A stretch of DNA of 64,000 nucleotides from contig SVNT01000004.1 in NCBI GenBank assembly GCA_015066785.1, positions 126,376-190,375 on the forward strand, read 5' to 3'. Positions 20,401 to 36,715 of this stretch are shown one piece after another. The notes below the pieces were generated by a model. That model was not told the origin of the DNA and ran no database searches. It saw only the letters and a program-made list of their open reading frames with translations. Each line of letters begins with the position of its first letter. The stretch's first letter is position 1. The position numbers and the translations under genes were made by a program. The stretch comes from Ruminococcus sp. Lineage in GTDB: Bacteria > Bacillota > Clostridia > Oscillospirales > Ruminococcaceae.

Positions 20401-22011
20401 AAAATGGATACCTCTGATATTGATTTTTCAAAAGGTCTTATATCTGTATTTGGTATGATTGATAATCCCGAAAAGCAATCCCAGTATCCCGCAACGATAG
20501 ATATATCAAAAACATCGAACATACTTGTTTCAGGTATGTCGGGTTCGGGAAAATCAACATTCCTCCAGACAGTTGTCTATTCACTCGTTTCAAACTATAC
20601 GCCCGACGAATTCCAGTTCTATTTTATTGACTTTTCGAGCAGAACAACAAGAAAGTTTGAAAAACTGCCTCATTGCGGCGGAGTTGTTTTCCAGGAAAAC
20701 AGCGAGCATATAGAAAGACTTTTCAAGCTTCTTGATAAAGAGTGCGAAGAAAGGAGAAGGCTTTTTGACGAGGCGAACACAGGTGGATTCGGAGAGTATG
20801 TAAAGAAGAAAAGAATACCTATGATTTTGCTTGTGATAGATAATTACGCAGGCTTCGCCGAAGGCTACCCTGAATTTGCCGAAAAGCTTGCAGCCTTTTC
20901 AAGAGACTGTCTTAAGTATGGAATTCAGCTTATTATCTCAGCAGGCAATCCAAACGATGTCAAATATAAAATGCAGCAGAATATAGGTTACAAAATCGCA
21001 TTACAGCTTTCCGACCGTTATGGATATAACGAGGTGTTCGGAAAATCCCCCGACTTTGCGCCATCCAAATACGCAGGCCGTGGAATTATCAAGGAAAACG
21101 AGCTTCTTGAATTCCAGACAGCTGTACCTTTTGAAATTGCAGATGAAACAGCACGCTCCGACAGAATGATTTCGGATATTTCAGATATTGCACGGAAATA
21201 TAAAAAGCACAAATCCGCAAAGAAAATTCCTGCTTTGCCGAAGGATGAGCCGTATGTTGATTTTTACAGAAACAACAAATCAGACGGACTGATTCCGTTG
21301 GGATATGATACAAATGATATTTCTGTCATAGCACCACTGAGAAAAGATATATTCTGCCTTGCAGTAGGTGGGCGTGAAGAAAAGAGCATTGCTCTCGTAT
21401 TTGACAATCTCGCTTTTTGCGCAAAGCAATCAGGTGCGGTTGTTTGGTATTTCAGGACGACATCGGATATTCTTTGTCAGTCGGAATTTGTGGATAAAAT
21501 CTATACCTCTGCTGACATTATAGAGTTCCTTGAGGGAGTACAGAAAGAATTTGAAGTTGCTTCAGAAATAAGAGGAAAATACAAGGATACAATGAATGCA
21601 ACTGCATTGGAAGAAAAAGTTGTGGAAGAAAAGAAGATGCTGTACATATTCATAGACAGCATGGCTGAATTCCACAAAATAATATACGATGCTTCCAATA
21701 AGTATCCTCTTAACACGCTTGTCGAGGAAACATTCAGATATGGAGAAAAGAGAGGCGTAAGCTTTATTGCGGGATTTGGCCAGGACAGCTATATCGATGC
21801 CGTTCATAGCAATGCCTGCAAGAACTTCCTTCTCAACAAGACGATTCTTCATATGGGCGGATGTCTCGAACAACAGAAGATGTATTCTTCATCATTGCCA
21901 TATAACATCCAGAACAAACCTCTCGATATGAATGTCGGATATTTCTTTGACGGAACGTCCGAAAGACGTATATTCATACCATTATCGGAACGGAGGGAAA
22001 ACGATGCTTGA
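17419..22011 (+). CDS. essC: T7SS FtsK/SpoIIIE-family ATPase EssC
   Basis: 1530 aa. N-terminal FHA-like ITIGMDDSCDIVY..HATL..STNGTFLNG, then two TM helices. Walker A GTTGSGKSE and GMSGSGKST, with a third degenerate P-loop region (VGGREEKS). Confidence 0.9.
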   Translation: MAYIFYFNFKENVYEYPLPAVRNRAVSIDLSEFSSEKGVINLEMFDGVWKLLPSDDFDYFINGAPIKEKEIGDGDKFTVRGKKGGLQFMIFALIASENIRVYKKWSLDGVDTITIGMDDSCDIVYKEQFVSHNHATLKRNGTDFFISDSSTNGTFLNGVKISEETKLSVFDTIYILGLKIIYLGGYIATNKILELDVNLAEVCDTTIEYEPYEDESDFSRSPRRTEPLDDEVVEIEAPPAQHKATSQPLIFIIGPSVTMPLPIMISIVINMMSSGNTANPLMYLGTVISVVCSGFIGAGWALAHQFYNKKTMKKQEEERVKAYGEYIAKNEKLLSEKQDKNKSIMEEQFLSSDKLMSRILEDNTSLWNRNINHADFSTIRFGTGSVKMTNGISIPKERFSMSDDSLADKPREIFDRYNIMEGCAYTTRLIGNKIWGILGEYENVMNIVNNIVVQLSALHSYNDIKIAILCRENEKDKYLWMKWLPHMFTADKKIRMFGCDGNSIKNVCSFLGGELRSREENAGDSSKNQMILPHYFVICTDKNILEKNIISKYIMNNSELGFTFILAYEKMDKLPNECKVIIQHDDTYSGIYSLSSTIDETNSVVFDNVDTKKAERYSRAINGLYLTEFSQGEIPASVDYLDMLGIGRFEQWNLIKKYKENRSYESIASFIGIGAGNRPVILDISEKMHGPHGLVAGTTGSGKSETIQTFILSLILNYSPDEVAFILIDYKGGGMAAAFNGIPHLAGIITNLGGDTGDGEIDENLTRRALISIKSEIKRRQKIFNRFKVNHINQYIKMYRGGTVSEALPHLIIISDEFAELKHKQPEFIKELVSVARVGRSLGIHLILATQKPAGVVDEEIWSNSRFKICLKVQDKQDSMGMLKRPEAAYLVNTGRAYMQVGNDEIFDMFQSGYSGAEYIPTDDFVSSKDKEVIMIDIDGTYLEENIMSENKNQTEVSQLKAGIDYIIAVSAANQIKATRKLWNESLSSLIGLDKMDTSDIDFSKGLISVFGMIDNPEKQSQYPATIDISKTSNILVSGMSGSGKSTFLQTVVYSLVSNYTPDEFQFYFIDFSSRTTRKFEKLPHCGGVVFQENSEHIERLFKLLDKECEERRRLFDEANTGGFGEYVKKKRIPMILLVIDNYAGFAEGYPEFAEKLAAFSRDCLKYGIQLIISAGNPNDVKYKMQQNIGYKIALQLSDRYGYNEVFGKSPDFAPSKYAGRGIIKENELLEFQTAVPFEIADETARSDRMISDISDIARKYKKHKSAKKIPALPKDEPYVDFYRNNKSDGLIPLGYDTNDISVIAPLRKDIFCLAVGGREEKSIALVFDNLAFCAKQSGAVVWYFRTTSDILCQSEFVDKIYTSADIIEFLEGVQKEFEVASEIRGKYKDTMNATALEEKVVEEKKMLYIFIDSMAEFHKIIYDASNKYPLNTLVEETFRYGEKRGVSFIAGFGQDSYIDAVHSNACKNFLLNKTILHMGGCLEQQKMYSSSLPYNIQNKPLDMNVGYFFDGTSERRIFIPLSERRENDA

Positions 22012-26265: not shown

Positions 26266-27474
26266 TTATTTTTTTAAATCAATAAGCATTTCCTTCATAA
26301 TATTATGTAGTTTATCGTTACTTTCCTTTATGTCATCAGATTGATTTATTATAATTTTTTCTCCTATTCTCACCTTGTATTTTTTTGATTTTACTTTCTC
26401 GATAACAACAGGAATGATAGGTGCGTTTGTAATCTGCGCCACTCTTACCGCACCATAACGGAAAGGTAGCAGGAGTTCATTTGTTTTATTACGGGTACCC
26501 TCGGGAAAAACAATCAGGTTGCCTTTGTTGAGTATAGTCTGAATCATCACCAATCTTGAAGTTTTTCCTGAAATCTTGCTGTATCTGTTGACATAAATCG
26601 TTCCTAACGGTTTTTGTAAAAATCTCAGAGGAGAAAGTTCGTATTCTTTCTTTGTAAGAAGCCTTGCAAAACGGTTTTTCAACACAAGATATGCAATAGG
26701 AATATCCGATGAACGCCTATGATTAAAAACAAAAATACTCCCATCTGATTCAGGAATATTATTCTGGTTTTCGATTTCAAGTTTTAAAAAACAGGACACT
26801 ATTTTTCCTAATGTTTTCATTATGATTTTGTGATTTGATTTGTATTTTTCATATTCTTCCTCATCAAAAGGAATTCTGTTATAATCACTTATGGAGTTTG
26901 TTCTGTTGATTTTATTTATTTTGCTGTATAAATCCCCGAAATCCGATACAAATTCAAAATCAGGCATATGAGAATTATATCCTGCCTGCATGCATAATAC
27001 ATTGCATACATCCTTTAAAAGTTGTATATTTTCAGGGTCATCCTCTATAAAGCAATCTATATCCAGTTCTTTTGCCAATCTGAATTTTTCTTTGGCAGCA
27101 TTATGAGTATTCACAAAATAAATGTCATCATAACAGACATTGTTTTTATATAACCATTTTTTCAGAATATTCCGTATAATCCTGCCGAACAAAAAATTGT
27201 TCGCATATGCTCGGGCAGTTATGATATATATTTTATGCCCCTGTTTTTTCAATTCACGCATTACCGCAGATGCGTTTTCCCTTATAGGCATATTGATTAT
27301 ATACCATACAAAATGCTTTATATGAAATTTCAGTTCTTTCTTTTTTGTCCAGTTGTATCTTTTTTGTAAATCAAGTTCTGTTTTATTTATTGAATTTGAT
27401 TTGGCATAATAATCAAGATACCATTCATAATCCGTAAAAACTCCATCAACATCTATGGCGATATTCATCATCAA
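26266..27474 (-). CDS. HAD-like phosphatase / nucleotidase-like domain fused to PlsC-type lysophospholipid acyltransferase
   Basis: N-terminal IAIDVDGVFTD (HAD motif I). C-terminal FNHRRSSD (HX4D) and FPEGTRN acyltransferase motifs. Confidence 0.65.
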   Translation of the reverse strand: MMMNIAIDVDGVFTDYEWYLDYYAKSNSINKTELDLQKRYNWTKKKELKFHIKHFVWYIINMPIRENASAVMRELKKQGHKIYIITARAYANNFLFGRIIRNILKKWLYKNNVCYDDIYFVNTHNAAKEKFRLAKELDIDCFIEDDPENIQLLKDVCNVLCMQAGYNSHMPDFEFVSDFGDLYSKINKINRTNSISDYNRIPFDEEEYEKYKSNHKIIMKTLGKIVSCFLKLEIENQNNIPESDGSIFVFNHRRSSDIPIAYLVLKNRFARLLTKKEYELSPLRFLQKPLGTIYVNRYSKISGKTSRLVMIQTILNKGNLIVFPEGTRNKTNELLLPFRYGAVRVAQITNAPIIPVVIEKVKSKKYKVRIGEKIIINQSDDIKESNDKLHNIMKEMLIDLKK

Positions 27475-28031: not shown

Positions 28032-29093
28032 TTAATGGTTGTCCTTTTTTTCTTCGTCTTTCGGCGTCCTGATTATTATCACATCATCGTTACCGTCTGA
28101 CGGTGACAGTTTTCCTGAGTAGTTATAGAAAAGTGCGGAAATATCTTTGAAAAGCTGATACTCGGTTTCTCCTATTTCGAGGTCTTCAAAATTCGTGAGT
28201 ATTGCAAGGGTGTATGGTCTTTCGTCATATATTATAGCCATATCGTGAAAATATCCCGCATACCAGCCGTATTTTCTCGCTATTTCAGAATTTTCGCCCG
28301 CATATATCATCGGGTGTAATGTAGATGTCATATATTCATATAGATTCTGGGAGTACGGATTTCCCTCTTCGATAAAATTATATATCTCTCTTGAGATATC
28401 AATTGCACTCTCTGCACATATCATGTTGCCGGAATTACAGTAATAATCAACCCCGATGGAGTTCATGTATCCGACAAACTCATTTTCGGGGAATACATTT
28501 TTAAGCATTGCGAAGGCGGTATTATCGCTTCTTTTTATAGAAAGTCCGATAAGTTCCTCTATCGTGAATTCTTTCCCGGGCTCCATATCCTTGATAACGC
28601 CTGTTCCGTTTCTTCTGAATTGTTCTTCAAAAACAACAATATCGGAAGTGTTTGCCTTATTTTCAAGTGCAAGTTCGTAAATATGAAGTATGTACGGTGC
28701 TTTTATTAACGACGCAGAATAATAATGATTATCGGGATTTATCATCACAGAGAAACCCGTTTCAATATCACTGTAAGCAACAGATATATCGTAATTATTG
28801 AAATGCGGATATTTTTCCATTATATCGGAAAGGTCTGAATAAAATTCTTTCGGGAAAGCGTATCTCCCATTGCCATATTCAAAAAATACAGGCACATTTT
28901 CGCTTGTGGTAGTAACGAAAGTATCAGTTGGTTTATCACGGGAAGCAGAAGCCGTATTTGTTGTTTCGGCAAATGTTGTATCAGTTGTAATTGCCTTTGC
29001 AATTTCGTGCATTTCGTGATTGTCTGTAAGCGATATGTACATTATAGATAGTGTATATAATACGACGGTAATGAATACTCTGATTTTTTTCAC
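28032..29093 (-). CDS. Secreted serine hydrolase, class A beta-lactamase-like
   Basis: SASLIKAPY (SxxK) and KRSDNTAF (SDN) motifs. GTG start at 29093 behind GGGAGGTG gives a VKKIRVFITVVLY signal anchor. Confidence 0.55.
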   Translation of the reverse strand: MKKIRVFITVVLYTLSIMYISLTDNHEMHEIAKAITTDTTFAETTNTASASRDKPTDTFVTTTSENVPVFFEYGNGRYAFPKEFYSDLSDIMEKYPHFNNYDISVAYSDIETGFSVMINPDNHYYSASLIKAPYILHIYELALENKANTSDIVVFEEQFRRNGTGVIKDMEPGKEFTIEELIGLSIKRSDNTAFAMLKNVFPENEFVGYMNSIGVDYYCNSGNMICAESAIDISREIYNFIEEGNPYSQNLYEYMTSTLHPMIYAGENSEIARKYGWYAGYFHDMAIIYDERPYTLAILTNFEDLEIGETEYQLFKDISALFYNYSGKLSPSDGNDDVIIIRTPKDEEKKDNH

Positions 29094-29273
29094 GGTGCTT
29101 TCACCTCCCGAACAGATAATAAATATTAACATATTTTTGCTGCAATATTTTTATATACTGATAAAACGCACGAATTGTTTCTTTAAATGTAAGGAATTGC
29201 AAAATATCTCCTTGGATTTGCAGATAATCAAAACCACCCCCGACGAATTTTCGTCGGGGGTGGTTTGCTTTCG

Positions 29274-30626
29274 TTATCCTTCTCTGCAGCCCATCAGAAC
29301 GCTTGCGGAGAATTTTCCGTTTTCAACTGTCGTTGAGTATGAGCCGTTGTATTTCTCGGCAATAGTCTTCACGATGTTTGTTCCCAGCCCGTGAAGGAAT
29401 TTGTCCGATTTCTGTGTTACCAGCTTTTTAGCCTTTTCTGCGTTGTGGCAGGAGTTTTCGCAGCATATTGCAACAGCACCCTTTTTGCACACGCAGTTGA
29501 GGGAGATTTTCTTTTCGGACTCTTCTTTTATGCGGTCGCATTCCTCTATTGCATTGTCGAGCAGGTTTGTGAAGACCGAAACTATATCCATAGCGTCTAT
29601 GTCTATCTTTTCGGGGAGGGTTATCGCCACATCGAAGTCGATGCCCTTTTCTCTTGCGACAGCCTCCTTGCTTGAAACTGCGGCGTTTACGATGTTGTTT
29701 TCGCAGTATTCTATCTTCCGTACCGTGTACGATGAGGTCATTTCCTTTACGTATTTACGGAAGCCCTCGGTGTCGTTGTTTTCCGAAAAGATGTTCAGCG
29801 CCTGAATATGATTTTTCATATCGTGGTTGAGCTTTCTTATCTTCTGCTGATTTTTCTCAAGCGCCGAGTAGTATTCATACTGTAATTTTGTCTGCTTTGC
29901 GAGAAGTTCTTTTTCACGCTTGTAGTTTGCGCTTAAAACGGTGCTGAAAAGAATGGTGTAGAGTATTGCCAGCGGGACAATTATTATAAAGAATATTGTC
30001 GGATATTTGACCTCGCCCGTCATAGAAAAATCGTTGATGAATACAACTATAAATCCCGGGATTTCGATTAAAATAAAGAGAATGGAAAAAATCATAGAAA
30101 AAGCAAGCGGCGGATGATATTTCCTGAAAAGAACAGGCCCTGCAAGATAGAGCGGAAGAAGATATCCTGTAATATCTATGCATCTTCTGAAAACCCATTC
30201 GGCAACAATAATCGTGTCCGAATAATTATCGGAAGCGAGGATAAATCCCTGAACATTCGTCACATCATAGAAGAACGAAACTATCATCGAGATGATCATA
30301 GTTGCGAATGCAACAAGAAAATAGAATGAAAAATACCGCCATTTTTCTTCATTGTAATTTATGATGGTGTATATATAGACCATTGCATAAAAAAGGAATG
30401 ACAGAATCAGCATAATATAGATATCAATATGGTATCCGTCGGCTGTAAGAAGATTTTTGAAAATGTTTCCTACAAATTTGACTGTAAAAAAAATCGGAAG
30501 AAGCACTTTGGAAAATTTCTTCGGCGGTATTGCAATCATTATCGAAACAAATTCTATGATTGTTGTTAAAAAAATCTGAAAGACATAAACAATATCCCCA
30601 AGATAAAAATGCTCTGCAAGTATCAT
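29274..30626 (-). CDS. AgrC/LytS-like GHKL sensor histidine kinase (polytopic)
   Basis: About 6 TM helices, KLNHDMKNH H-box, and LLDNAIEE and HGLGTNIV ATPase motifs. Confidence 0.8.
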   Translation of the reverse strand: MILAEHFYLGDIVYVFQIFLTTIIEFVSIMIAIPPKKFSKVLLPIFFTVKFVGNIFKNLLTADGYHIDIYIMLILSFLFYAMVYIYTIINYNEEKWRYFSFYFLVAFATMIISMIVSFFYDVTNVQGFILASDNYSDTIIVAEWVFRRCIDITGYLLPLYLAGPVLFRKYHPPLAFSMIFSILFILIEIPGFIVVFINDFSMTGEVKYPTIFFIIIVPLAILYTILFSTVLSANYKREKELLAKQTKLQYEYYSALEKNQQKIRKLNHDMKNHIQALNIFSENNDTEGFRKYVKEMTSSYTVRKIEYCENNIVNAAVSSKEAVAREKGIDFDVAITLPEKIDIDAMDIVSVFTNLLDNAIEECDRIKEESEKKISLNCVCKKGAVAICCENSCHNAEKAKKLVTQKSDKFLHGLGTNIVKTIAEKYNGSYSTTVENGKFSASVLMGCREG

Positions 30627-30629
30627 ATC

Positions 30630-31334
30630 TTAAACCCCTCTGCACATGAATTTTGCGAAATCGGTTTTTGTGGCGTCTGCATAGTTTCTGCTTATCGGAA
30701 TTTCGTTTCCGTTTTCAAAAACATACTTGTTCCTGAAAATTTCCGAAACCTTTACCATATTCACAATAAAGCTCTTGTGACATCTTGTAAAGCCTTTTTC
30801 GCAGAGGCTTTCATACAGCGTGTCGAGTTTTTCCGTAACCGTAAACGAGTCGTTTTCAAGGTAAATTTTCGCCGTTCTTCCGCTATGCTCGCAATAGAAT
30901 ATGTCGCTCACCTTCAGGACTCTTTTTCTGTCCTTTGACGAAACGGTTATAAAGTCGTTTTTTGCCGCTTCGATTTCGGACAGCGCCTTTTCAATCGCTC
31001 TGGGAAGATTTTTCTCCATATCCTCCTTGACGACGAAGTATGTATGCTCCGCCGAATAGACATCGGTTGCATAGCCTATGTGGTTTGTCAGGAAGATTAT
31101 CCTGCAGTCAGGAATTTTCTCGTTCAGGAGTTTTGCAAGGTCTATACCGCTTTCGTCTTTAAGTTCAATATCGAGAACTGCAATGTCAGCGTTTGAGTCA
31201 ACGCATTTTTTCAGGCCGTCATCGAAATTTTCCGAAACGACGATATTGAAGATGCCATTGTAATTTTCGGCAATGATTTTCTGCGACTGCGCAAGAAAAA
31301 CCCCGTTATCATCGCATAAAAGAAGATTGTACAT
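30630..31334 (-). CDS. LytTR-family response regulator
   Basis: Start at MYNLLLCDDN (31334) behind a GGGGGG RBS. Phospho-Asp context IAVLDIEL. C-terminal FTRCHKSFIVNM...ISRNY is LytTR. Confidence 0.8.
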   Translation of the reverse strand: MYNLLLCDDNGVFLAQSQKIIAENYNGIFNIVVSENFDDGLKKCVDSNADIAVLDIELKDESGIDLAKLLNEKIPDCRIIFLTNHIGYATDVYSAEHTYFVVKEDMEKNLPRAIEKALSEIEAAKNDFITVSSKDRKRVLKVSDIFYCEHSGRTAKIYLENDSFTVTEKLDTLYESLCEKGFTRCHKSFIVNMVKVSEIFRNKYVFENGNEIPISRNYADATKTDFAKFMCRGV

Positions 31335-31550
31335 TAAACCACGCCCCCCTGAAATTGTTACACGAATAATTATACATTTTAAGGCGAATTTAGTCAATAG
31401 AGGGAGAAAAAACGAAAAAATGACAAACGGCATAAAAATTGTCCTGAAATGCAAAAAAATCTGTAAATATCAAAAAAATGCAATTTGGTCAAGGAATTTA
31501 CACATCGGGATTTTTCTGATGTAGAATGTAAAAAAGAAAGGAGAGTGACA

Positions 31551-31859
31551 GTGGTGTTGGGTCTTTTAAATATATACTGGGATATCAGTCAGCTTGAGGA
31601 AATGAAATCAAAACTCCAGAAAAAGCGTGATGAATTTGCCGAAACGCAAAACACATTCATAGGCCAGCAGAACCTCCTGACTTCCGTCTGGAAGGGCGAT
31701 GCAGGCGATCTTGTGAATTACAGGCTGAGCATTGACAAGGACAAATTCGAAACAATTGTACGCCATATGGATTGGCAGATATCCGTTCTGGAATACGCCA
31801 TAAACCGATACCGTCAATGTGAAAATAATGTCCTGAACAAAGTCAGAAGAGTCGGCTGA
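31551..31859 (+). CDS. WXG100-like small helical protein
   Basis: GTG start after AAAGGAGA. SVWKGDAG is a W-x-G motif at the helix-turn-helix centre. About 100 aa. Confidence 0.55.
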   Translation: MVLGLLNIYWDISQLEEMKSKLQKKRDEFAETQNTFIGQQNLLTSVWKGDAGDLVNYRLSIDKDKFETIVRHMDWQISVLEYAINRYRQCENNVLNKVRRVG

Positions 31860-31892: not shown

Positions 31893-32231
31893 ATGAGTGA
31901 GCAGATAAGTTCCGACATTCAGGTTATGGCAAATGTTGAAAGCGAGTTCACACAATTATCCGAAAAAATCGGATCGCTGGAATCGGAAATCAGGATTTTT
32001 GAAGAATATTACAAAGACACATGGGGCGAAAAGGCAAAAAAGAAATTCTTCTCCGAAATGTCTGATATGCATAATTGTATGTTAAAACTTGCGGAAACGG
32101 TAAAAGTCGAAAAGACTATTATTGAAACAGCAAGAAAGAATTACGAAAATGCGGAAAATATTTCTTCCAAGACTGTTCAGACTCTTCAGGAAGAGACCCC
32201 GTTTTCTACAAAAAATATGTTCAATAATTAA
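31893..32231 (+). CDS. WXG100-like small helical protein, C-terminal ...KNMFNN
   Basis: 112 aa, DTWGEKA motif, predicted all-helical. Confidence 0.55.
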   Translation: MSEQISSDIQVMANVESEFTQLSEKIGSLESEIRIFEEYYKDTWGEKAKKKFFSEMSDMHNCMLKLAETVKVEKTIIETARKNYENAENISSKTVQTLQEETPFSTKNMFNN

Positions 32232-32248: not shown

Positions 32249-33178
32249 ATGTTACAGATAGACACGGAAGAATACAGGCGTATGGCAAGTAGCGCCAGAA
32301 GAAATGCCGAAAGTATCATGGAATCAACGATTGACATCAACGGATTTGTTAATACAGTTGAAGTTGCATGGATTTCGCAGGCGTCTTCCGAATATTGCGA
32401 AAAAATAAAAAACATAACAGAGAAAATGAAGAATACCGCCTACGATCTGAATGGTTTGTCCAAGAGGATAAATTCATATGTCAACGATATTATTGCAGCT
32501 GACCATGAGGCCGCAGAAATCATAGGAGGAGGCTCTTCGGGAGGGAATTCATCCTCACAGACAACAACGCAAAGTGTGGTTCTTGACAGATACAAGGCGA
32601 AGAATTATTCAACAAAGGGTGTTGTAGGGACAACAGGTTATGAGGGCTATGGCGGATATTATTATCAGAATGACTCAATAGGCGCTGCGGTTGCACAATT
32701 TAATGATAATTCGGGTTGGGTGTCATGTACATTCACAACCATGCACAAACTTCACAGTAAAGAATTGGGGTATCCGTTTGACCATGCGGGAGATACAAGT
32801 GGAGGACAGTGGTTTGACAACTGTGCGGCTGATTCTGCTAACAAATACGCAGGTGTTGAAGGTTTCAGGCAGATGGTTAATGAATATATGGAGTCAGACC
32901 AGACAGAGCCGTTAAGGAATATTGTTGTTTCTTTCGATTCAGGGCAATACGGCCATGTATTGTTTATAGACGGAATACATAAAGACGGAGAAATAACATT
33001 CTACGACAATTCTTGGGGCCCAGGATTCGAAACAAGGCTGTATGCCGAAAATCTTACAACAGAAGCTGCAATAAAGGCTGTTGACAATGCCCCCGTTCAT
33101 GGTATGCAGGTTGAAGAATTCCTCAATCACTATAAATGGATGGACATGAACGGCGCAGTTATAATCGGAAACAATTAA
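32249..33178 (+). CDS. WXG/LXG-like helical N-domain fused to CHAP/NlpC-like cysteine amidase domain
   Basis: About 90-aa helical N-terminus, GGGSSGGNSS linker, then GWVSCTF (Cys), GGQWFDN and GQYGHVLFIDGIHKDGEITFYDNSW (His...N), arranged as in CHAP domains. Confidence 0.6.
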   Translation: MLQIDTEEYRRMASSARRNAESIMESTIDINGFVNTVEVAWISQASSEYCEKIKNITEKMKNTAYDLNGLSKRINSYVNDIIAADHEAAEIIGGGSSGGNSSSQTTTQSVVLDRYKAKNYSTKGVVGTTGYEGYGGYYYQNDSIGAAVAQFNDNSGWVSCTFTTMHKLHSKELGYPFDHAGDTSGGQWFDNCAADSANKYAGVEGFRQMVNEYMESDQTEPLRNIVVSFDSGQYGHVLFIDGIHKDGEITFYDNSWGPGFETRLYAENLTTEAAIKAVDNAPVHGMQVEEFLNHYKWMDMNGAVIIGNN

Positions 33179-33201: not shown

Positions 33202-33495
33202 ATGGCACAATTTGAAATCAGACCAATGGAAATGGAACAGACAGCAAGGGAAATTGACGCTAAAATCAACGAATGGCAGGCATCGGTAAACAGACTTTAT
33301 CAGTATGTATCAGAACTTGACACTATGTGGGAAGGCGATGCAAACGACGCTTTCAACAAGACTTTTGCAGCTGACAGGTCAAAATACAACAGCCTCGCAA
33401 ATCTTATGGACGAGTACAAGAACGCAATCCTCAAAGCAGCTCAGGAATATAAGATTGCTGATTCGGAGAGCGCGAAAAAAATTTCAAACACCTAA
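33202..33495 (+). CDS. esxA: WXG100 family protein EsxA-like
   Basis: 97 aa. MAQFEIRPMEMEQTAREI..., central TMWEGDANDAF WXG motif. Confidence 0.85.
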   Translation: MAQFEIRPMEMEQTAREIDAKINEWQASVNRLYQYVSELDTMWEGDANDAFNKTFAADRSKYNSLANLMDEYKNAILKAAQEYKIADSESAKKISNT

Positions 33496-33528: not shown

Positions 33529-33852
33529 ATGAGTAATTTGGTAATAAAGGTTTCTACTGAGGAATTAAACAATAAGGCTGCACAGCTTGAAAAAGAAAAG
33601 GGCGAAATGGAAACGCTCATGAACGATATGAGAGCAAAGGTGACTTCCCTCAGTGATTTCTGGAAGAGCCAGTCTGGAACAAACTATGTCGACAAATATC
33701 AGAATGTCACAAGAGAAATCACAGCTTCGCTTGACGGACTTTCGAGACATATCCAGAACCTGAGAACATCAGCGGAAATATTGAAAGAAAAGGATAGCAC
33801 TACAACAAACGATGTAAACAGACTTTCTACAACCAAAATGTTCAACAACTGA
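33529..33852 (+). CDS. WXG100-like protein (EsxB-like partner), C-terminal ...TKMFNN
   Basis: 107 aa, SDFWKSQSG centre, helical. Confidence 0.6.
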   Translation: MSNLVIKVSTEELNNKAAQLEKEKGEMETLMNDMRAKVTSLSDFWKSQSGTNYVDKYQNVTREITASLDGLSRHIQNLRTSAEILKEKDSTTTNDVNRLSTTKMFNN

Positions 33853-33920
33853 TTTGATGAGGGTCGGTTTATCCGGAAGTAAGCCGACCCTGTTTCATTA
33901 TAATGTAAAGGGGAACACTT

Positions 33921-35243
33921 ATGCTTTACAAAATGAATGTAAAAGAAATAGCCACTGCGTATGCTGATATTTCGACTATAAAAAACAATTTTCAGGATAT
34001 ACATCAGCAATTTGTTGATTTCATAAACGAATTCAGTGATATACAGGGCAATGATGCAATATCACAGCAGTTTTTTGACGAAGCGGTTGAGTATATGAAA
34101 AAATTCGAAAGATGCAAAGAAGACATGGAAGAACTTATGGGTATTCTTTATGAATGTATAAGCATGACTCAGGAAGCGGAAAATGAAGTTGCCAATTATA
34201 TGACGCAATTAATATCCGAAAAAGAAGTGGTACCCACATCCAGATACGACGCATATCTTCATCATAGAAATCAGTATAATGAAAACTATGAAAAGTGGAC
34301 AGAAAAGAATTTCAACGTCAAGAATGTCATTGGATCGGCTATCAACGATATTTTTGATGAAAACATCGTTAGAGCCGGAAAGGATCTGCTATCTGGAGAG
34401 AGTATGGTTTCAAGAATTGAAACTGAAAATATCAAAAAAATTCTTCATTCGGCAATTCAGAACGAATGTCAGTCAAGAGAATTCAAGTGGCTGAATGATG
34501 GCATCGAAAAAGACATTATGGATGTAGCTCTCGATTCAAGAAAAACTGTGAATTACGGAAAAGACATCGGCGAATTCGTAGTGAAAAACACTTTGTCCGA
34601 AAGTCAGATGAATGTTATGGCGGAGAATATGAAACTTACGCCCGAAGCTTTCGGCAAATTCCTGAAGTACGGTAAAATGAGCGGAGAATATACAGAGTAT
34701 CTGATGAACGATTACAGCGAGAATATGGAATATCTCGATTCGCTTAAAACCGCTTTTTCGGAGGTTTCAAATCCTGCGGTAGTTGAAAATGTCATTAATG
34801 AGCTTGAAAGACAGTATACAGATAAATTCTTTGAAGTCGCCGACAAATTGGTAGACGACGGACTGGATATAGCGTCGGATAAGCTTACTGATACCCTGAT
34901 GGAATTAACCCCCGGGACACAGGCGCTTAAATTAGTTATTGATGGCGCAGAATTGCTCATGGATGCAACGGGCGCTTCTAAAAATATGGATAATTGGTCT
35001 GAAATTGTAAGATATAATAATAATTTCCAGGGCAGTATGGATAATGCGATAAACAATTATCTCGATAAATTCAATGACGGAACAGCATCTATGCAGGATA
35101 TTAAGACTCTGAATACGCTTATTGATATTGATACTTCCGCAAAACAGATTATGTACGATAAAATGTCTGTGGCAAATAACGGTCTTGCGTCGGATTTCGA
35201 ACAGGCCTCCGATGCACTCAGCAAATATCAACAGCTTTATTAA
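33921..35243 (+). CDS. 440-aa all-helical protein, possible LXG-like T7SS substrate
   Basis: The N-terminal ~100 aa resemble a WXG/LXG helical hairpin (FSDIQGNDAISQQF). No TM, no recognisable toxin motif, and no downstream immunity gene. Confidence 0.35.
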   Translation: MLYKMNVKEIATAYADISTIKNNFQDIHQQFVDFINEFSDIQGNDAISQQFFDEAVEYMKKFERCKEDMEELMGILYECISMTQEAENEVANYMTQLISEKEVVPTSRYDAYLHHRNQYNENYEKWTEKNFNVKNVIGSAINDIFDENIVRAGKDLLSGESMVSRIETENIKKILHSAIQNECQSREFKWLNDGIEKDIMDVALDSRKTVNYGKDIGEFVVKNTLSESQMNVMAENMKLTPEAFGKFLKYGKMSGEYTEYLMNDYSENMEYLDSLKTAFSEVSNPAVVENVINELERQYTDKFFEVADKLVDDGLDIASDKLTDTLMELTPGTQALKLVIDGAELLMDATGASKNMDNWSEIVRYNNNFQGSMDNAINNYLDKFNDGTASMQDIKTLNTLIDIDTSAKQIMYDKMSVANNGLASDFEQASDALSKYQQLY

Positions 35244-35290: not shown

Positions 35291-36715
35291 TTAAAGGTTG
35301 AAATATCTGTCGAACTCTGCAGGGTGAGGAATCTTTGACATTTCGAAAACTTCTTTTCTCTTGTTTGCGATGAATGTCTTGATGAGCTGCTCGGGGAATA
35401 CTCCTCCTTCTGTGAGGTAATCGTGGTCTGCCTCGAGAGCGTCGAGAGCAGCGTCGAGCGTTGTCGGGAGTGACGAGAGCTTTGCCTTCTCCTCATCCGA
35501 GAGCTTGTAGAGGTTGAAATCGTAAGGACCCCAACCGTTTGCGTGGGGGTCAATCTTGTTCTTTACGCCGTCAAGACCTGCCATGAGGATAGCAGCGTAT
35601 GCGAGATACGGGTTGCAGGTAGCGTCGGGGTTACGGATTTCAAAGCGGCGGAGTGCAGGGGTCTTTGCGTATGCGGGGATACGGATTACAGCACTTCTGT
35701 TTGATGTAGCGTAGCCTACCGTTACGGGAGCTTCAAATCCCGGAACAAGTCTCTTGAATGAGTTTGTGCTGGGGTTTGTGATAGCACAGAGCGATGAAAT
35801 ATGCTTGAGAAGTCCGCCCATGAAGTAGTGCGCAGTCTCGCTGAGGTGTGAGTATCCGTTGTCGTCGGAGAATACAGGCTCGCCGTCCTTGAGGAGAAGC
35901 ATATGTACGTGCATTCCGTTTCCTGCCTCGTTGTATACGGGCTTGGGCATGAATGTTGCAACCTTGCCGTACTTGAGAGCTGTATTATGCACGATGTACT
36001 TTATCATCATTGTTGCGTCTGCCATCTTTGACATCTGTCCGAGCATAGGTTCGATTTCAAACTGTCCCGCAGCACCTACTTCGGGGTGATGGTACTTGAT
36101 TGCGATGCCTGCCTTCTGCATTTCAAGGCACATTTCCGAACGGCACTCGTATGATGTGTCAAACGGCTTTGCGATGTGGTAGTTCTTCTGGTGAGCAACT
36201 ACACAGCCCTTGCCTTCTGTGTCGCTGTTCCAGTACGACTGTGTAGCGTCTACGTGCATTGAAATCTTTTCGGGTGTTACAGACCAGCCTGCGTTATCGA
36301 AAAGATGGAATTCAAATTCGGGGAGAATAAGCATTGTATCGGCAATGCCTGAGTCCTTCATATACTGCTCAGCAGCAAGAACAATGTTTCTGGGGTACTG
36401 GTCGAGAGGTCTGTTCTCAGGGTAGTCTATGACCATTGCGTTACCTGTGATGGAGAGCGTAGGCACTCCGCAGAAAGGGTCGATGAGTGCTGTATCGAGG
36501 TCGGGAATGAAAACCATGTCACTCTTTTCAACAACTGCATATCCGTAGTTTGATGCGTCAAATCCGATACCCTCGGAAAGTGTCTGCTCCGAAAACTGCT
36601 CCGCAGGGATTGTTACATGACGGAATTGTCCGTTGATATCAACGATTTTGAAGTCAATCATTTTGATATCGTTGTCTTTAATCATAGCCATGAGTTCCTG
36701 TACTGTTCTTGCCAT
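35291..36715 (-). CDS. glnA: Glutamine synthetase, type I
   Basis: 474 aa. FDASNYGY, MPKPVYNEAGNGMHVHM, NPSTNSFKRLVPGFEAP motifs. Confidence 0.9.
   Translation of the reverse strand: MARTVQELMAMIKDNDIKMIDFKIVDINGQFRHVTIPAEQFSEQTLSEGIGFDASNYGYAVVEKSDMVFIPDLDTALIDPFCGVPTLSITGNAMVIDYPENRPLDQYPRNIVLAAEQYMKDSGIADTMLILPEFEFHLFDNAGWSVTPEKISMHVDATQSYWNSDTEGKGCVVAHQKNYHIAKPFDTSYECRSEMCLEMQKAGIAIKYHHPEVGAAGQFEIEPMLGQMSKMADATMMIKYIVHNTALKYGKVATFMPKPVYNEAGNGMHVHMLLLKDGEPVFSDDNGYSHLSETAHYFMGGLLKHISSLCAITNPSTNSFKRLVPGFEAPVTVGYATSNRSAVIRIPAYAKTPALRRFEIRNPDATCNPYLAYAAILMAGLDGVKNKIDPHANGWGPYDFNLYKLSDEEKAKLSSLPTTLDAALDALEADHDYLTEGGVFPEQLIKTFIANKRKEVFEMSKIPHPAEFDRYFNL

What the first reader, a model, noticed from the sequence alone, without database searches (positions are those of the whole stretch)
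32249..33178. WXG/LXG-like helical domain fused to a CHAP-type cysteine amidase with no adjacent immunity gene
A ~90-aa helical N-domain and a Gly/Ser linker precede a domain with the CHAP arrangement: Cys in GWVSCTF, GGQWFDN, then GQYGHVLFIDG...ITFYDNSW. The gene sits between WXG100 genes, so it is very likely a T7SS substrate.

Peptidoglycan hydrolases are known T7SS accessories or effectors; S. aureus EssH is a CHAP enzyme. The next gene here is esxA rather than an immunity gene. That favours a self-wall-remodelling role, or a toxin that acts only from outside on competitors.
Basis: partly seen in the sequence, partly recalled or inferred. Interest (0 to 1): 0.6.

Follow-up and report, generated by a model that had tools for sequence, protein, structure and literature searches.

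The report
Type VII-exported cell-wall hydrolase without antidote
A rumen/gut Oscillospiraceae bacterium joins an ESAT-6-like secretion handle to a divergent CHAP-type wall-cutting enzyme with no antidote gene, so it is probably type VII cargo that opens peptidoglycan rather than a classical toxin, a cargo class I found no experimental report of in Firmicutes.

Summary
ORF 32249..33178 (+, 309 aa) has three parts: an EsxA-fold hairpin (res 1-93, W41-I-S43 at the turn), a disordered Gly/Ser/Thr linker (93-117), and a divergent papain-like domain. That domain passes the Pfam CHAP cut-off narrowly (27.7 vs 26 bits). It has invariant Cys160 and His236, nearly invariant Asp253, and dN/dS of 0.05-0.12.

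There is no Sec signal or membrane segment. A bona fide EssC lies 10 kb upstream. Within the genus the gene occurs in exactly the 4 of 8 genomes that have EssC.

Two small WXG-like helper genes precede it, and the system's conserved WXG100 pair follows it. The helpers and the hairpin form a sharply bounded 1-kb cassette that is swapped between strains, while the enzyme domain stays 99% identical.

None of the six loci read at sequence level has a membrane or secreted immunity candidate after the hydrolase gene. Only L016 has an uncharacterised cytosolic gene there. Other effectors in these genomes do have immunity-like neighbours. Distant relatives sit beside essC, and a few carry Sec signals or a ricin lectin domain instead of the hairpin.

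Best reading: a T7SS-exported wall-opening peptidoglycan hydrolase. A competitor-lysing toxin is the close rival. Enzyme activity and secretion are untested. This is a new variant of a known kind.

The parts
31551..31859 (+). A1: small WXG100/YwqH-like helper (Lap-like). The start is uncertain; the longest ORF starts at TTG 31485.
   Evidence: - Pfam YwqH-like E 7e-4 and WXG100 E 2.7e-3.
- Homologous to A2, E 1e-7.
- Conserved in position in L001, L003 and L004.
- Part of the swapped cassette.
31893..32231 (+). B1: second small WXG-like helper, ending in FSTKNMFNN.
   Evidence: - TIGR03930 E 8.6e-5.
- The tail F/L-S-T-x-x-M-F-x-N is kept in B1 of three of the four loci and, with Pro for Ser, in B2 of L004, although the B1 body is only 35-52% identical.
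- Similar -NIF tails occur in L009.
32249..33178 (+). E1: the finding, a WXG hairpin::linker::CHAP-like hydrolase, 309 aa.
   Evidence: No hydrophobic segment; maximum KD19 is 0.93.
32249..32527 (+). E1 residues 1-93: EsxA-fold helical hairpin with W41-I-S43 at the turn (codons 32369-32377).
   Evidence: - AF2 helices 6-40 and 44-93.
- Foldseek TM 0.82-0.88 to S. aureus and Geobacillus EsxA.
- The family profile hits about 90 free-standing ~100-aa proteins, matched over the hairpin positions only.
32525..32599 (+). E1 residues 93-117: Gly/Ser/Thr-rich disordered linker. The recombination breakpoint of the targeting cassette lies just before it.
   Evidence: pLDDT below 50 over residues 93-117. 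The L001/L003 DNA identity jumps from about 52% to 99% at the position of E1 residue ~85.
32600..33175 (+). E1 residues 118-309: divergent CHAP/papain-like domain. Cys160 is at 32726-32728, His236 at 32954-32956 and Asp253 at 33005-33007.
   Evidence: - Pfam CHAP 28.9 bits against a cut-off of 26.
- AF2 pLDDT 89.7; the Cys starts a helix, the His starts a strand, and the Asp follows the next strand.
- The weak fold hits are dominated by CHAP, amidase and papain-like proteins.
- dN/dS 0.05-0.12.
33202..33495 (+). A2: WXG100 protein, member of the conserved core pair.
   Evidence: - TIGR03930 57.1 bits (above 44.85) and Pfam 49.4 bits.
- 70-97% identical among the four loci.
- By my reading of the translations, L009 10732..11025 looks like its homologue; no comparison was run.
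33529..33852 (+). B2: WXG100 protein, member of the conserved core pair, ending in LSTTKMFNN.
   Evidence: Pfam 48.9 bits. 74-93% identical among the four loci. By my reading of the translations, L009 11037..11354, which ends in LSTENIF, looks like its homologue; no comparison was run.
33860..33891 (+). Terminator-like hairpin between B2 and the second effector (13-bp stem, weak T tail).
   Evidence: Consensus scan only.
33921..35243 (+). E2: second, polymorphic effector (440 aa). It has a helical ~100-aa N-domain and an unknown ~340-aa helical C-domain.
   Evidence: - Its N-terminal 100 aa are 36% identical (E 3e-19) to the N-terminus of P0011, whose C-domain is a CHAP paralogue.
- A 46%-identical orthologue is in L004.
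- In L001 this slot holds a CHAP paralogue truncated at the catalytic Cys motif.
17419..22011 (+). EssC: FHA-FtsK/SpoIIIE ATPase of the T7SS, the presumed exporter.
   Evidence: TIGR03928 1070 bits against a cut-off of 778. Pfam FHA plus two FtsK_SpoIIIE hits.
29274..31454 (-). AgrC-like GHKL histidine kinase (29274..30626) and REC-LytTR regulator (30630..31454), divergent from the operon. Candidate regulators.
   Evidence: Pfam HATPase_c_5, Response_reg and LytTR. No LytTR boxes were found.

Best explanation
**What it is.** E1 is cargo of the type VII secretion system encoded in the same window.

**How it most likely works.**
1. In the cytoplasm, the EsxA-like hairpin (res 1-93) pairs with the two small helper proteins encoded just upstream (A1, B1). 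Together they form a helical bundle like an LXG-Lap1-Lap2 pre-secretion complex.
2. B1 carries the same C-terminal ...ST..MFNN tail as the core WXG100 protein B2. This tail probably presents the complex to EssC.
3. After export, the C-terminal Cys160/His236/Asp253 CHAP-like domain hydrolyses peptidoglycan.
4. Cross-linked peptidoglycan exists only outside the membrane, so the enzyme is harmless in the producer's cytoplasm and needs no antidote.

**Role.** I think it most likely acts as a non-lytic wall-opening enzyme for the secretion system. It would loosen the producer's own sacculus, and possibly a touching neighbour's, so that T7SS cargo can pass. That makes it a functional analogue of S. 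aureus EssH, but routed through the T7SS itself.

**Shown:** architecture, conservation, gene context, co-occurrence with EssC, cassette swapping, and absence of an immunity gene.

**Inferred:** complex formation, export, peptidoglycan as the substrate, and the wall-opening role.
For: **Export route**
- The EsxA fold is matched at TM 0.82-0.88.
- There is no Sec signal or membrane segment.
- EssC is in the window.
- The gene is present in exactly the 4 EssC-positive genomes of the 8 in the genus. In two of them it sits on the essC contig, 8-14 kb away.
- Six of six sequence-read loci of the wider family lie among WXG100, YukD, DUF4176 or EssC genes (window, L003, L007, L009, L014, L016). L015, read from its gene table only, fits the same pattern. 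Three lie in or immediately next to the essC core: L007, L009 and L015.

**Helpers and hairpin act as one unit**
- A1, B1 and E1 residues 1-~85 form a sharply bounded cassette. It is 39-83% identical at the DNA level between L001 and L003, inside flanks that are 96-100% identical.
- Protein identity across the four loci is 27-52% for the cassette parts and 74-99% for the enzyme domain.

**Functional extracellular hydrolase**
- Pfam CHAP is above its cut-off.
- The catalytic residues are conserved.
- The model has papain-like topology.
- dN/dS is 0.05-0.12.
- Some relatives carry a Sec signal, with or without a ricin-B lectin domain, or a membrane segment ahead of the same domain.

**No antidote**
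- No membrane or secreted immunity candidate follows the hydrolase gene in the window, L001, L003 (two copies), L004, L007 (two copies), L009 or L014.
- By contrast, the non-CHAP paralogue in L014 is followed by a 209-aa multi-membrane-span gene.
- The toxin cassettes at 40-49 kb of the window are each followed by a small ORF that could be an immunity gene (not tested here).

**Precedent for need**
- EssH is required for T7SSb assembly across the wall (PMC13059805).
- How cargo crosses the wall is called an open question in PMC13492133.
Against: - Enzyme activity, substrate and secretion are all untested.
- The CHAP assignment is marginal. The score is 1.7-2.9 bits above the cut-off. No fold match beats E 0.01 or TM 0.44. 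The family profile finds nothing among PDB sequences. My ad hoc hhalign was inconclusive.
- The enzyme is not a general part of this machinery. Of the 17 EssC-positive genomes among 151 sampled in the family, only this genus has it. Eight EssC-positive sister genera show only small WXG100 ORFs.
- Duplication (L003) and pseudogenisation (L001) of the paralogue, the Lap-like helpers and the polymorphic neighbour E2 all look like effector biology rather than machine biology.
- The hairpin turn is W-x-S, and the N-domain scores below the WXG100 cut-offs.
Confidence: 0.45

Rival explanations
1. E1 is a true antibacterial effector, a T7SS-delivered bacteriolysin that degrades the peptidoglycan of competitors. 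The producer and its kin would be protected not by a cognate immunity protein but by wall chemistry the enzyme cannot cut, by a protective gene elsewhere, or by spatial separation.
For: - The operon is effector-like, with two Lap-like helpers.
- It sits next to a polymorphic second effector whose slot holds a CHAP paralogue in other strains.
- The paralogue shows duplication and decay.
- Distribution in the family is patchy and genus-specific, although other genera have T7SS.
- Sec-signal and ricin-lectin versions of the domain resemble secreted bacteriolysins.
- The genome invests heavily in toxin cassettes.
- A wall-degrading T7SS toxin exists in mycobacteria: EatA, with two Tap helpers (PMC13444075).
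Against: - No membrane or secreted immunity candidate in the six loci read at sequence level. Characterised wall-targeting T7SS and T6SS effectors (TelC-TipC, EatA-EatI, Tae-Tai) have adjacent immunity genes.
- The payload is highly conserved and under strong purifying selection, with no sign of an arms race.
- No conserved wall-modifying gene sits next to the module.
Confidence: 0.3
2. The C-domain is a papain-like enzyme with a substrate other than peptidoglycan. It could be a protease, deamidase or acyltransferase acting on proteins or lipids of target cells, or on secreted peptides.
For: - The fold matches are weak. They include C39 peptidases, MCF-like cysteine proteases, LRAT and a papain-like toxin as well as CHAP enzymes.
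- The family profile finds no solved CHAP by sequence.
- An AgrC-like kinase without agrB or agrD lies next door (lead from note e1-3010350).
Against: - CHAP is the only Pfam catalytic family hit, in 18 of 29 members.
- A cytoplasm-active protease or deamidase made without an immunity protein would harm its producer.
- Ricin-lectin and Sec-signal variants point to an extracellular glycan-bearing substrate.
Confidence: 0.12
3. E1 is not exported by the T7SS. It would be released by lysis or another route, or would act inside the cell, and the WXG-like hairpin would serve only for oligomerisation.
For: The N-domain scores below the WXG100 cut-offs and lacks the Gly of W-x-G. No secretion data exist.
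Against: - Exact co-occurrence with EssC.
- Conserved T7SS neighbours in every locus read.
- EsxA-fold match.
- Helpers and hairpin are inherited as one cassette.
Confidence: 0.06

Closest known systems
EssH of Staphylococcus aureus (CHAP peptidoglycan hydrolase required for T7SSb secretion; PMC13059805)
   Same: - A CHAP-type cysteine hydrolase encoded with a T7SS.
- Non-lytic and has no immunity protein.
- Proposed to open the wall for the secretion apparatus.
   Different: - EssH has a Sec signal peptide and is explicitly not a T7SS substrate. E1 has an EsxA-like hairpin, no signal peptide, and two Lap-like helper genes.
- Sequence similarity to EssH was not tested here.
- By Pfam I saw no EsaA, the protein EssH helps across the wall, in this locus (lead from note e1-3010342).
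LXG polymorphic toxins with Lap1/Lap2 targeting factors (S. intermedius TelA-D; PMC9600955, bioRxiv 10.1101/2023.07.21.550046, PMC5555719)
   Same: - An N-terminal helical targeting domain and a C-terminal enzyme.
- Two small WXG-like helper genes directly upstream.
- Encoded with essC.
- TelC also acts on the wall pathway from outside the membrane.
   Different: - E1's targeting domain is a 93-aa WXG hairpin, not a ~200-aa LXG domain, and Pfam LXG does not hit it.
- The polymorphism is reversed: the targeting cassette varies and the payload is conserved.
- There is no cognate immunity gene.
EatA / TapA1-TapA2 / EatI of Mycobacterium abscessus (T7SSa ESX-4 endo-arabinanase toxin; PMC13444075)
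   Same: - A T7SS-secreted enzyme that degrades a cell-wall polymer.
- Encoded behind two small helical partner genes.
- The same paper predicts NlpC/P60 payloads in Actinomycetota.
   Different: - Different phylum and T7SS type, and a different enzyme (GH183).
- EatA has an adjacent secreted immunity protein and demonstrated toxicity. E1 has neither.
T6SS amidase effectors Tae/Tse1 with Tai/Tsi1 immunity
   Same: Papain-like (NlpC/P60-CHAP superfamily) peptidoglycan amidases delivered by a specialised secretion system. Tse1 appears among the weak fold hits.
   Different: They are delivered by a Gram-negative T6SS into the prey periplasm and are always paired with a periplasmic immunity protein. 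No detectable sequence relationship.
CHAP-domain proteins in streptococcal and enterococcal T7SS loci (PMC9900821, PMC13492133)
   Same: CHAP genes sit in T7SS loci, and their role is undefined.
   Different: [quoted passage not shown]

Membership tests
CHAP domain (Pfam PF05257; NlpC/P60-CHAP papain-like superfamily) | Score above the Pfam gathering threshold. | tested here: met
   27.7 bits for the whole protein and 28.9 for the C-domain, against 26. E is 4e-6 and 1.7e-6. Eighteen of 29 family members match at E <= 0.01. The margin is small.
CHAP domain (Pfam PF05257; NlpC/P60-CHAP papain-like superfamily) | A catalytic Cys, then a His, then a polar third residue about 17 residues after the His, all conserved. 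| tested here: met
   C160 and H236 are invariant. D253 (H+17) is at least 90% conserved across 21-29 sequences down to about 30% identity.
CHAP domain (Pfam PF05257; NlpC/P60-CHAP papain-like superfamily) | Papain-like topology: the Cys at the N-terminus of a helix, the His on a beta-strand, and the third residue by the next strand. | tested here: met
   In the AF2 C-domain model (pLDDT 89.7), the helix starts at the Cys, a strand starts at the His, and the Asp directly follows the next strand. Atomic distances could not be measured.
CHAP domain (Pfam PF05257; NlpC/P60-CHAP papain-like superfamily) | Significant structural or profile similarity to solved CHAP structures. | tested here: inconclusive
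   - Most of the top Foldseek PDB hits are CHAP or other papain-like proteins (2lrj, 5t1q, 2k3a, 4cgk, 4csh), but E is at least 0.045 and TM at most 0.44.
- BFVD gives the same picture.
- The HMM profile finds nothing among PDB sequences.
- hhalign aligns only the His region, E 0.089.
CHAP domain (Pfam PF05257; NlpC/P60-CHAP papain-like superfamily) | Peptidoglycan amidase or endopeptidase activity. | not testable with these tools
   Needs zymography or muropeptide analysis of the purified domain and a C160A control.
WXG100 / ESAT-6 family T7SS substrates | A helix-turn-helix hairpin of about 100 residues with the EsxA fold. | tested here: met
   Helices 6-40 and 44-93. TM 0.82-0.88 to EsxA 2vrz and 3zbh.
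WXG100 / ESAT-6 family T7SS substrates | A W-x-G motif at the hairpin turn, and a family-model score above the cut-off. | tested here: not met
   The turn is W41-I-S43; both W and S are invariant in the orthologues. PF06013 scores 22.6 against 27.3, and TIGR03930 24.2 against 44.85. It works like a WXG hairpin but is not a scoring member.
WXG100 / ESAT-6 family T7SS substrates | Encoded together with an EssC/EccC ATPase. | tested here: met
   EssC is 10 kb upstream. Co-occurrence in the genus is 4 of 4 EssC-positive against 0 of 4 EssC-negative genomes.
WXG100 / ESAT-6 family T7SS substrates | EssC-dependent secretion. | not testable with these tools
   Needs a secretome comparison of the wild type and an essC mutant.
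LXG polymorphic toxins (PF04740) with Lap helpers | An N-terminal LXG domain of about 200 aa. | tested here: not met
   There is no Pfam LXG hit, and the helical domain is only 93 aa. One distant family member does hit LXG.
LXG polymorphic toxins (PF04740) with Lap helpers | One or two small WXG-like helper genes directly upstream. | tested here: met
   A1 (YwqH-like/WXG100) and B1 are conserved in all four orthologous loci and are inherited with the hairpin as one cassette.
LXG polymorphic toxins (PF04740) with Lap helpers | A variable C-terminal toxin with an adjacent cognate immunity gene. | tested here: not met
   The C-domain is 74-99% conserved. No membrane or secreted immunity candidate follows in the six loci read at sequence level.
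EssH-type T7SS-dedicated wall hydrolase | An N-terminal Sec signal peptide (Sec-secreted, not a T7SS substrate). | tested here: not met
   The maximum 19-residue hydropathy is 0.93, and the N-terminus is an amphipathic hairpin. The EssH properties are taken from PMC13059805.
EssH-type T7SS-dedicated wall hydrolase | Required for export of other T7SS substrates. | not testable with these tools
   Needs an E1 deletion and a secretion assay for A2/B2.

The most novel reading that the evidence does not exclude
The kinase/phosphatase/FHA-regulated T7SS variants of gut Clostridia have no recognisable EsaA. They may export their own peptidoglycan hydrolase through the T7SS channel to cut a path through the Gram-positive wall. 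The hydrolase rides on an exchangeable three-part targeting cassette (two helpers plus the hairpin). Deeply divergent alleles of this cassette are shuffled between strains while the enzyme is kept constant. That would be a reversed form of toxin polymorphism and a new class of T7SS cargo in Firmicutes.
Probability: 0.3. Interest if true: 0.75.

Novelty: new variant of a known kind. Interest (0 to 1): 0.58.

Why it matters
**The open question.** How T7SS cargo crosses the thick Gram-positive wall is stated as open in a 2026 review (PMC13492133). The only characterised helper, EssH, is specific to S. aureus and is Sec-dependent.

**What this would add.** A wall hydrolase that is itself T7SS cargo, tied to EssC by presence and absence and embedded beside essC in distant lineages, gives a concrete and testable answer for non-staphylococcal systems. 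If the rival reading is right instead, it would be the first T7SS-delivered peptidoglycan-lytic weapon in Firmicutes, and one that works without an immunity protein.

**The swapped cassette.** The sharply bounded swap of helpers plus hairpin is natural genetic evidence that these three parts work together. It also shows polymorphism in the targeting module rather than in the payload.

**Wider pattern.** Notes from this scan report similar signal-less WXG-hydrolase fusions in several other uncultured gut Firmicutes, so this may be a widespread cargo class. Those notes are unchecked leads.

Tried and rejected
1. **Double-glycine leader or C39-type self-processing.** The linker starts ...E-x-x-x-I-I-G-G, which resembles a GG leader, and C39 peptidases appear among the weak fold hits. 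The GG is not conserved outside the close orthologues (P0011-P0013, P0017 and P0028 lack it), and Pfam gives no C39 hit. Rejected.
2. **Family profile (A3) against PDB sequences.** Nothing relevant.
3. **hhalign of A3 against seven canonical CHAP domains from relatives' genomes.** Only a local His-region match, E 0.089. The ad hoc CHAP alignment was poor, so the result is inconclusive.
4. **Metagenome-contig scan for more contexts.** The first alignment was too diverse. The second found one 1.5-kb contig. Contexts were obtained through the look-up of encoding contigs instead.
5. **Conserved immunity or wall-modifying partner near the module.**
   - The membrane-anchored Beta-lactamase2-family protein (28032..29132) and the acyltransferase (26266..27474) do not appear among the genes called or ORFs read next to the module in L001 and L003. 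L004 ORFs were listed by length only.
   - The TPR-anchored proteins upstream in L001 and L003 are divergent T7SS-locus surface proteins, not specific partners.
6. **LytTR-box direct repeats in the 31335-31550 promoter region.** None convincing.
7. **B1/B2 paralogy by BLASTP.** Not significant apart from the tail, E 8.2.
9. **WXG-fused enzymes in eight EssC-positive sister genera.** None; all WXG100 hits lie in ORFs of 157 aa or less.
Full report
**1. The observation**

ORF 32249..33178 (+) encodes 309 aa behind a GGAGG-type ribosome-binding site. AlphaFold2 on an 11-sequence alignment gives two long helices (6-40, 44-93), a disordered Gly/Ser/Thr linker (93-117) and a mixed alpha/beta C-domain. 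Cys160 (32726-32728) and His236 (32954-32956) are invariant, and Asp253 (33005-33007) is nearly invariant, in alignments reaching about 30% identity.

Pfam gives CHAP at 27.7 bits against a cut-off of 26, over residues 154-252. The N-domain gives WXG100 at 22.6 bits, below the cut-off of 27.3. NCBIfam TIGR03930 gives 24.2 bits, also below its cut-off. The protein has no hydrophobic segment (maximum KD19 0.93), so it has no Sec signal or membrane anchor.

**2. The two domains**

*N-domain.* It superposes on solved EsxA structures from S. aureus, Geobacillus and S. agalactiae with TM 0.82-0.88 normalised to the target. A profile of the family recovers about 90 free-standing ~100-aa proteins, matched over the hairpin positions only, from 1.84 billion representatives. 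The turn reads W41-I-S43, not W-x-G.

*C-domain.* Modelled alone on a 29-sequence alignment, it is confident (pLDDT 89.7, pTM 0.89). It has the papain-like layout: the Cys opens a helix, the His opens a strand, and the Asp follows the next strand.

Fold searches are weak: PDB E at least 0.045 and TM at most 0.44; BFVD E at least 0.011. Even so, the hit lists are dominated by CHAP, amidase and papain-like proteins, including 2lrj, 5t1q, 2k3a, PcsB, LysK, Tse1 and phage lysins. A sequence profile finds no solved relative, and an ad hoc hhalign against canonical CHAP domains aligns only the His region.

I therefore call it a divergent CHAP-like clade of the NlpC/P60-CHAP superfamily. dN/dS of 0.05-0.12 shows the domain is under strong constraint. 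It is the only CHAP-like gene found in this 1.8-Mb genome.

**3. Context in the window**

- EssC (17419..22011) scores 1070 bits on TIGR03928, against a cut-off of 778.
- It sits with an FHA protein, a PP2C phosphatase, a Ser/Thr kinase and TPR-anchored proteins. A REC-LytTR regulator and a weak YukD-like ORF follow it.
- This matches the kinase-linked T7SS variants catalogued by Garrett et al. 2024 (PMC11217815). That lead came from an earlier scan note. I confirmed only the domain content.
- The E1 operon reads A1 (31551..31859, YwqH-like/WXG-like), B1 (31893..32231), E1, A2 (33202..33495), B2 (33529..33852), a terminator-like hairpin (33860..33891), then E2 (33921..35243). A convergent gene (35291..36715, -), which I take from its translation to be glutamine synthetase, closes the locus.
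- A divergent AgrC-like kinase and LytTR regulator lie upstream.
- The genome's best EsxA (72 bits) heads a separate toxin-cassette island at 40-49 kb. There each toxin-like fragment is followed by a small ORF that could be an immunity gene; I did not test these.

**4. Relatives**

Close orthologues (57-98% identity) fall into only ten 90%-identity clusters among 5.8 billion proteins. Two species genomes in GTDB carry it, both Oscillospiraceae MAGs, one from sheep rectum and one from water-deer caecum. All loci keep the order A1-B1-E1-A2-B2.

The sixth slot is polymorphic:
- a 440/442-aa helical protein in the window and L004 (46% identity);
- a second CHAP paralogue in L003, with an N-terminus 36% identical to that of E2;
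- a copy of that paralogue truncated at the catalytic Cys motif in L001.

**5. Link to the T7SS**

- Within the genus, EssC occurs in 4 of 8 genomes, and the hydrolase occurs in exactly those four. In two of them it is on the essC contig.
- Across 151 genomes sampled from the family, 17 have a true EssC, but only this genus has the hydrolase.
- Eight EssC-positive sister genera have only small WXG100 ORFs.

The enzyme is therefore T7SS-dependent in distribution, but it is not a universal part of the machine.

**6. The wider family**

About 45 of the 136 representative hits match the enzyme-domain positions of the profile. Of the 22 whose sequences I read:
- most have helical N-domains; Pfam recognises WXG100, WXG100_2, LXG, DUF5344 or DUF6507 in ten of the 29 scanned members;
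- three have a membrane segment between the handle and the enzyme;
- two have Sec signals, one of them with a ricin-B lectin domain.

Context was readable for seven distant members, and all are T7SS loci:
- L007 and L009/L010 lie directly after FHA-EssC, with YukD-like, WXG100, DUF4176, PP2C, FHA and PASTA-kinase genes.
- L015 lies after an EssC fragment, a LytTR gene, a YukD gene and five WXG100 genes.
- L014 and L016 lie behind WXG100 and helper genes.

None has a membrane or secreted protein directly after the hydrolase gene. L016 has an uncharacterised cytosolic 213-aa gene there. In L014, the neighbouring paralogue with a different C-domain is followed by a 209-aa protein with two to three membrane spans.

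**7. The swapped targeting cassette**

Among the four orthologous loci, identities are:

| Part | Protein identity |
|---|---|
| A1 | 39-49% |
| B1 | 35-52% |
| E1 hairpin | 27-49% |
| E1 enzyme domain | 74-99% |
| A2 | 70-97% |
| B2 | 74-93% |

At the DNA level, L001 and L003 are 97-100% identical up to the A1 start. Identity drops to 39-83% across A1, B1 and E1 codons 1-~85. It returns to 96-100% from the linker through most of B2 and falls to 80-86% over the last ~190 nt compared. Synonymous divergence is saturated inside the cassette and 0.06-0.14 outside it.

So deeply diverged alleles of a helper-helper-hairpin unit are exchanged by recombination. This is genetic evidence that the three parts function together, as LXG-Lap1-Lap2 complexes do (PMC9600955; bioRxiv 10.1101/2023.07.21.550046).

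B1 keeps the tail F/L-S-T-x-x-M-F-x-N in all four loci despite this divergence. B2 keeps it in three of the four loci, with Pro in place of Ser in L004. The two L009 ORFs that look like their counterparts end in -NIF. I infer that this tail is a shared export signal.

**8. Mechanism**

*Shown:* the architecture, the conservation, the link to EssC, the cassette behaviour, and the lack of an immunity gene.

*Inferred:* A1 and B1 bind the hairpin. B1's tail presents the complex to EssC. After export the CHAP-like domain cuts peptidoglycan.

The absence of any antidote fits an enzyme whose substrate exists only outside the membrane and which is not lethal to kin. I lean to a wall-opening helper role analogous to EssH (0.45). 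A competitor-lysing toxin is second (0.30). Four points weigh for the helper role:
- there is no immunity gene;
- the payload is highly constrained;
- relatives sit inside the essC core;
- some versions are membrane-anchored.

The patchy distribution, and the duplication and decay of the paralogue, keep the toxin reading close.

**9. Comparison with the literature**

- EssH is Sec-secreted and is not a T7SS substrate (PMC13059805).
- Two T7SSb reviews (2023, 2026) and a 2023 group B Streptococcus preprint mention CHAP genes in some streptococcal and enterococcal loci; the 2026 review adds that no functional link is established. The passages I read list no wall-hydrolase payload among the toxins (PMC10765036, PMC13492133, PMC9900821).
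- The polymorphic-toxin catalogue lists Tox-NlpC/P60 only for T6SS, PVC and Tc systems (PMC3482391).
- The T7SSc-j paper mentions no peptidoglycan hydrolase cargo (PMC11217815).
- A Lactococcus bacteriolysin linked to contact-dependent killing is Sec-dependent (PMC12116727).
- The nearest experimental parallel is mycobacterial EatA, a T7SSa arabinanase with two Tap helpers and a secreted immunity protein. That paper also predicts NlpC/P60 payloads in Actinomycetota (PMC13444075).

In five full-text searches I found no experimental report of a T7SS-exported peptidoglycan hydrolase in Firmicutes. Earlier notes of this scan describe similar fusions in other uncultured gut Firmicutes. These are unchecked leads, not evidence.

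**10. Verdict**

This is a real, well-conserved gene. It is a new variant of known kinds (T7SS effector with helpers; CHAP wall hydrolase). It is of moderate to good interest because it makes the wall-crossing question testable and shows an unusual polymorphism in the targeting module rather than the payload.

Noticed in passing
window 33921-35243 (+); L004 11680-13008; L003 11692-12627; L001 11675-12241: The second effector slot is polymorphic. A shared ~100-aa helical N-domain carries one of three things: an unknown ~340-aa helical domain with no Pfam or NCBIfam hit (window, L004), a CHAP paralogue (L003), or a CHAP paralogue truncated at the catalytic Cys motif (L001). No immunity gene follows it in the window or L003; in the window the next gene, on the other strand, looks like glutamine synthetase.
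   Followed up: partly
L001 9261-10253 vs L003 (corresponds to window 31551-~32500): A sharply bounded ~1-kb cassette (A1 + B1 + the E1 hairpin) is 39-83% identical at the DNA level between two strains whose flanks are 96-100% identical. Synonymous sites are saturated inside it and dS is 0.06-0.14 outside. Why targeting modules rather than payloads are kept polymorphic is unexplained.
   Followed up: yes
window 32205-32231 and 33826-33852; L009 7354-7668 and 11037-11354: B-type WXG partners share a C-terminal tail: F/L-S-T-x-x-M-F-N-N here and ...NIF in a distant locus. The tail is conserved although the B1 bodies are only 35-52% identical. It is a candidate EssC-recognition signal.
   Followed up: partly
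window 39800-50100 (-): A low-GC island is headed by the genome's best EsxA (48912..49205, 72 bits). It holds a string of C-terminal toxin-like fragments that share a ...KYADE... junction, each followed by a small ORF. One example is 46909..47490 followed by 46484..46906. I read these from the translations only and ran no family search.
   Followed up: no
L014 6874-9441: In a distant T7SS locus, a paralogue of the CHAP effector has the same N-domain and membrane segment but a different C-domain. It is followed by a 209-aa protein with two to three membrane spans, which looks like an immunity protein. The CHAP copy 1.5 kb upstream has none. This works as an internal control for the 'no immunity' observation.
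   Followed up: partly
L009 9008-10078: Directly after the CHAP-like gene lies a 356-aa protein with a helical N-domain and a Gly/Ala/Val-rich C-terminal half. It is followed by a DUF4176 gene. I think it may be a membrane-active effector.
   Followed up: no
window 28032-29132 (-) and 26266-27474 (-): A membrane-anchored Beta-lactamase2-family protein and an acyltransferase with an N-terminal extension that gave no Pfam hit lie between essC and the effector operon. Neither appears among the genes called or ORFs read next to the module in L001 and L003, so I do not take them as partners.
   Followed up: partly
window 33860-33891 (+): A 13-bp-stem hairpin with a weak T tail lies between B2 and the second effector. 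It may be an attenuator that sets E2 expression lower than that of A1 to B2.
   Followed up: no
L007 6331-7446; proteins P0018, P0019, P0025: Some family members carry a hydrophobic, probably membrane-spanning stretch between the helical handle and the CHAP-like domain. This would tether the enzyme to a membrane with the catalytic domain outside.
   Followed up: no
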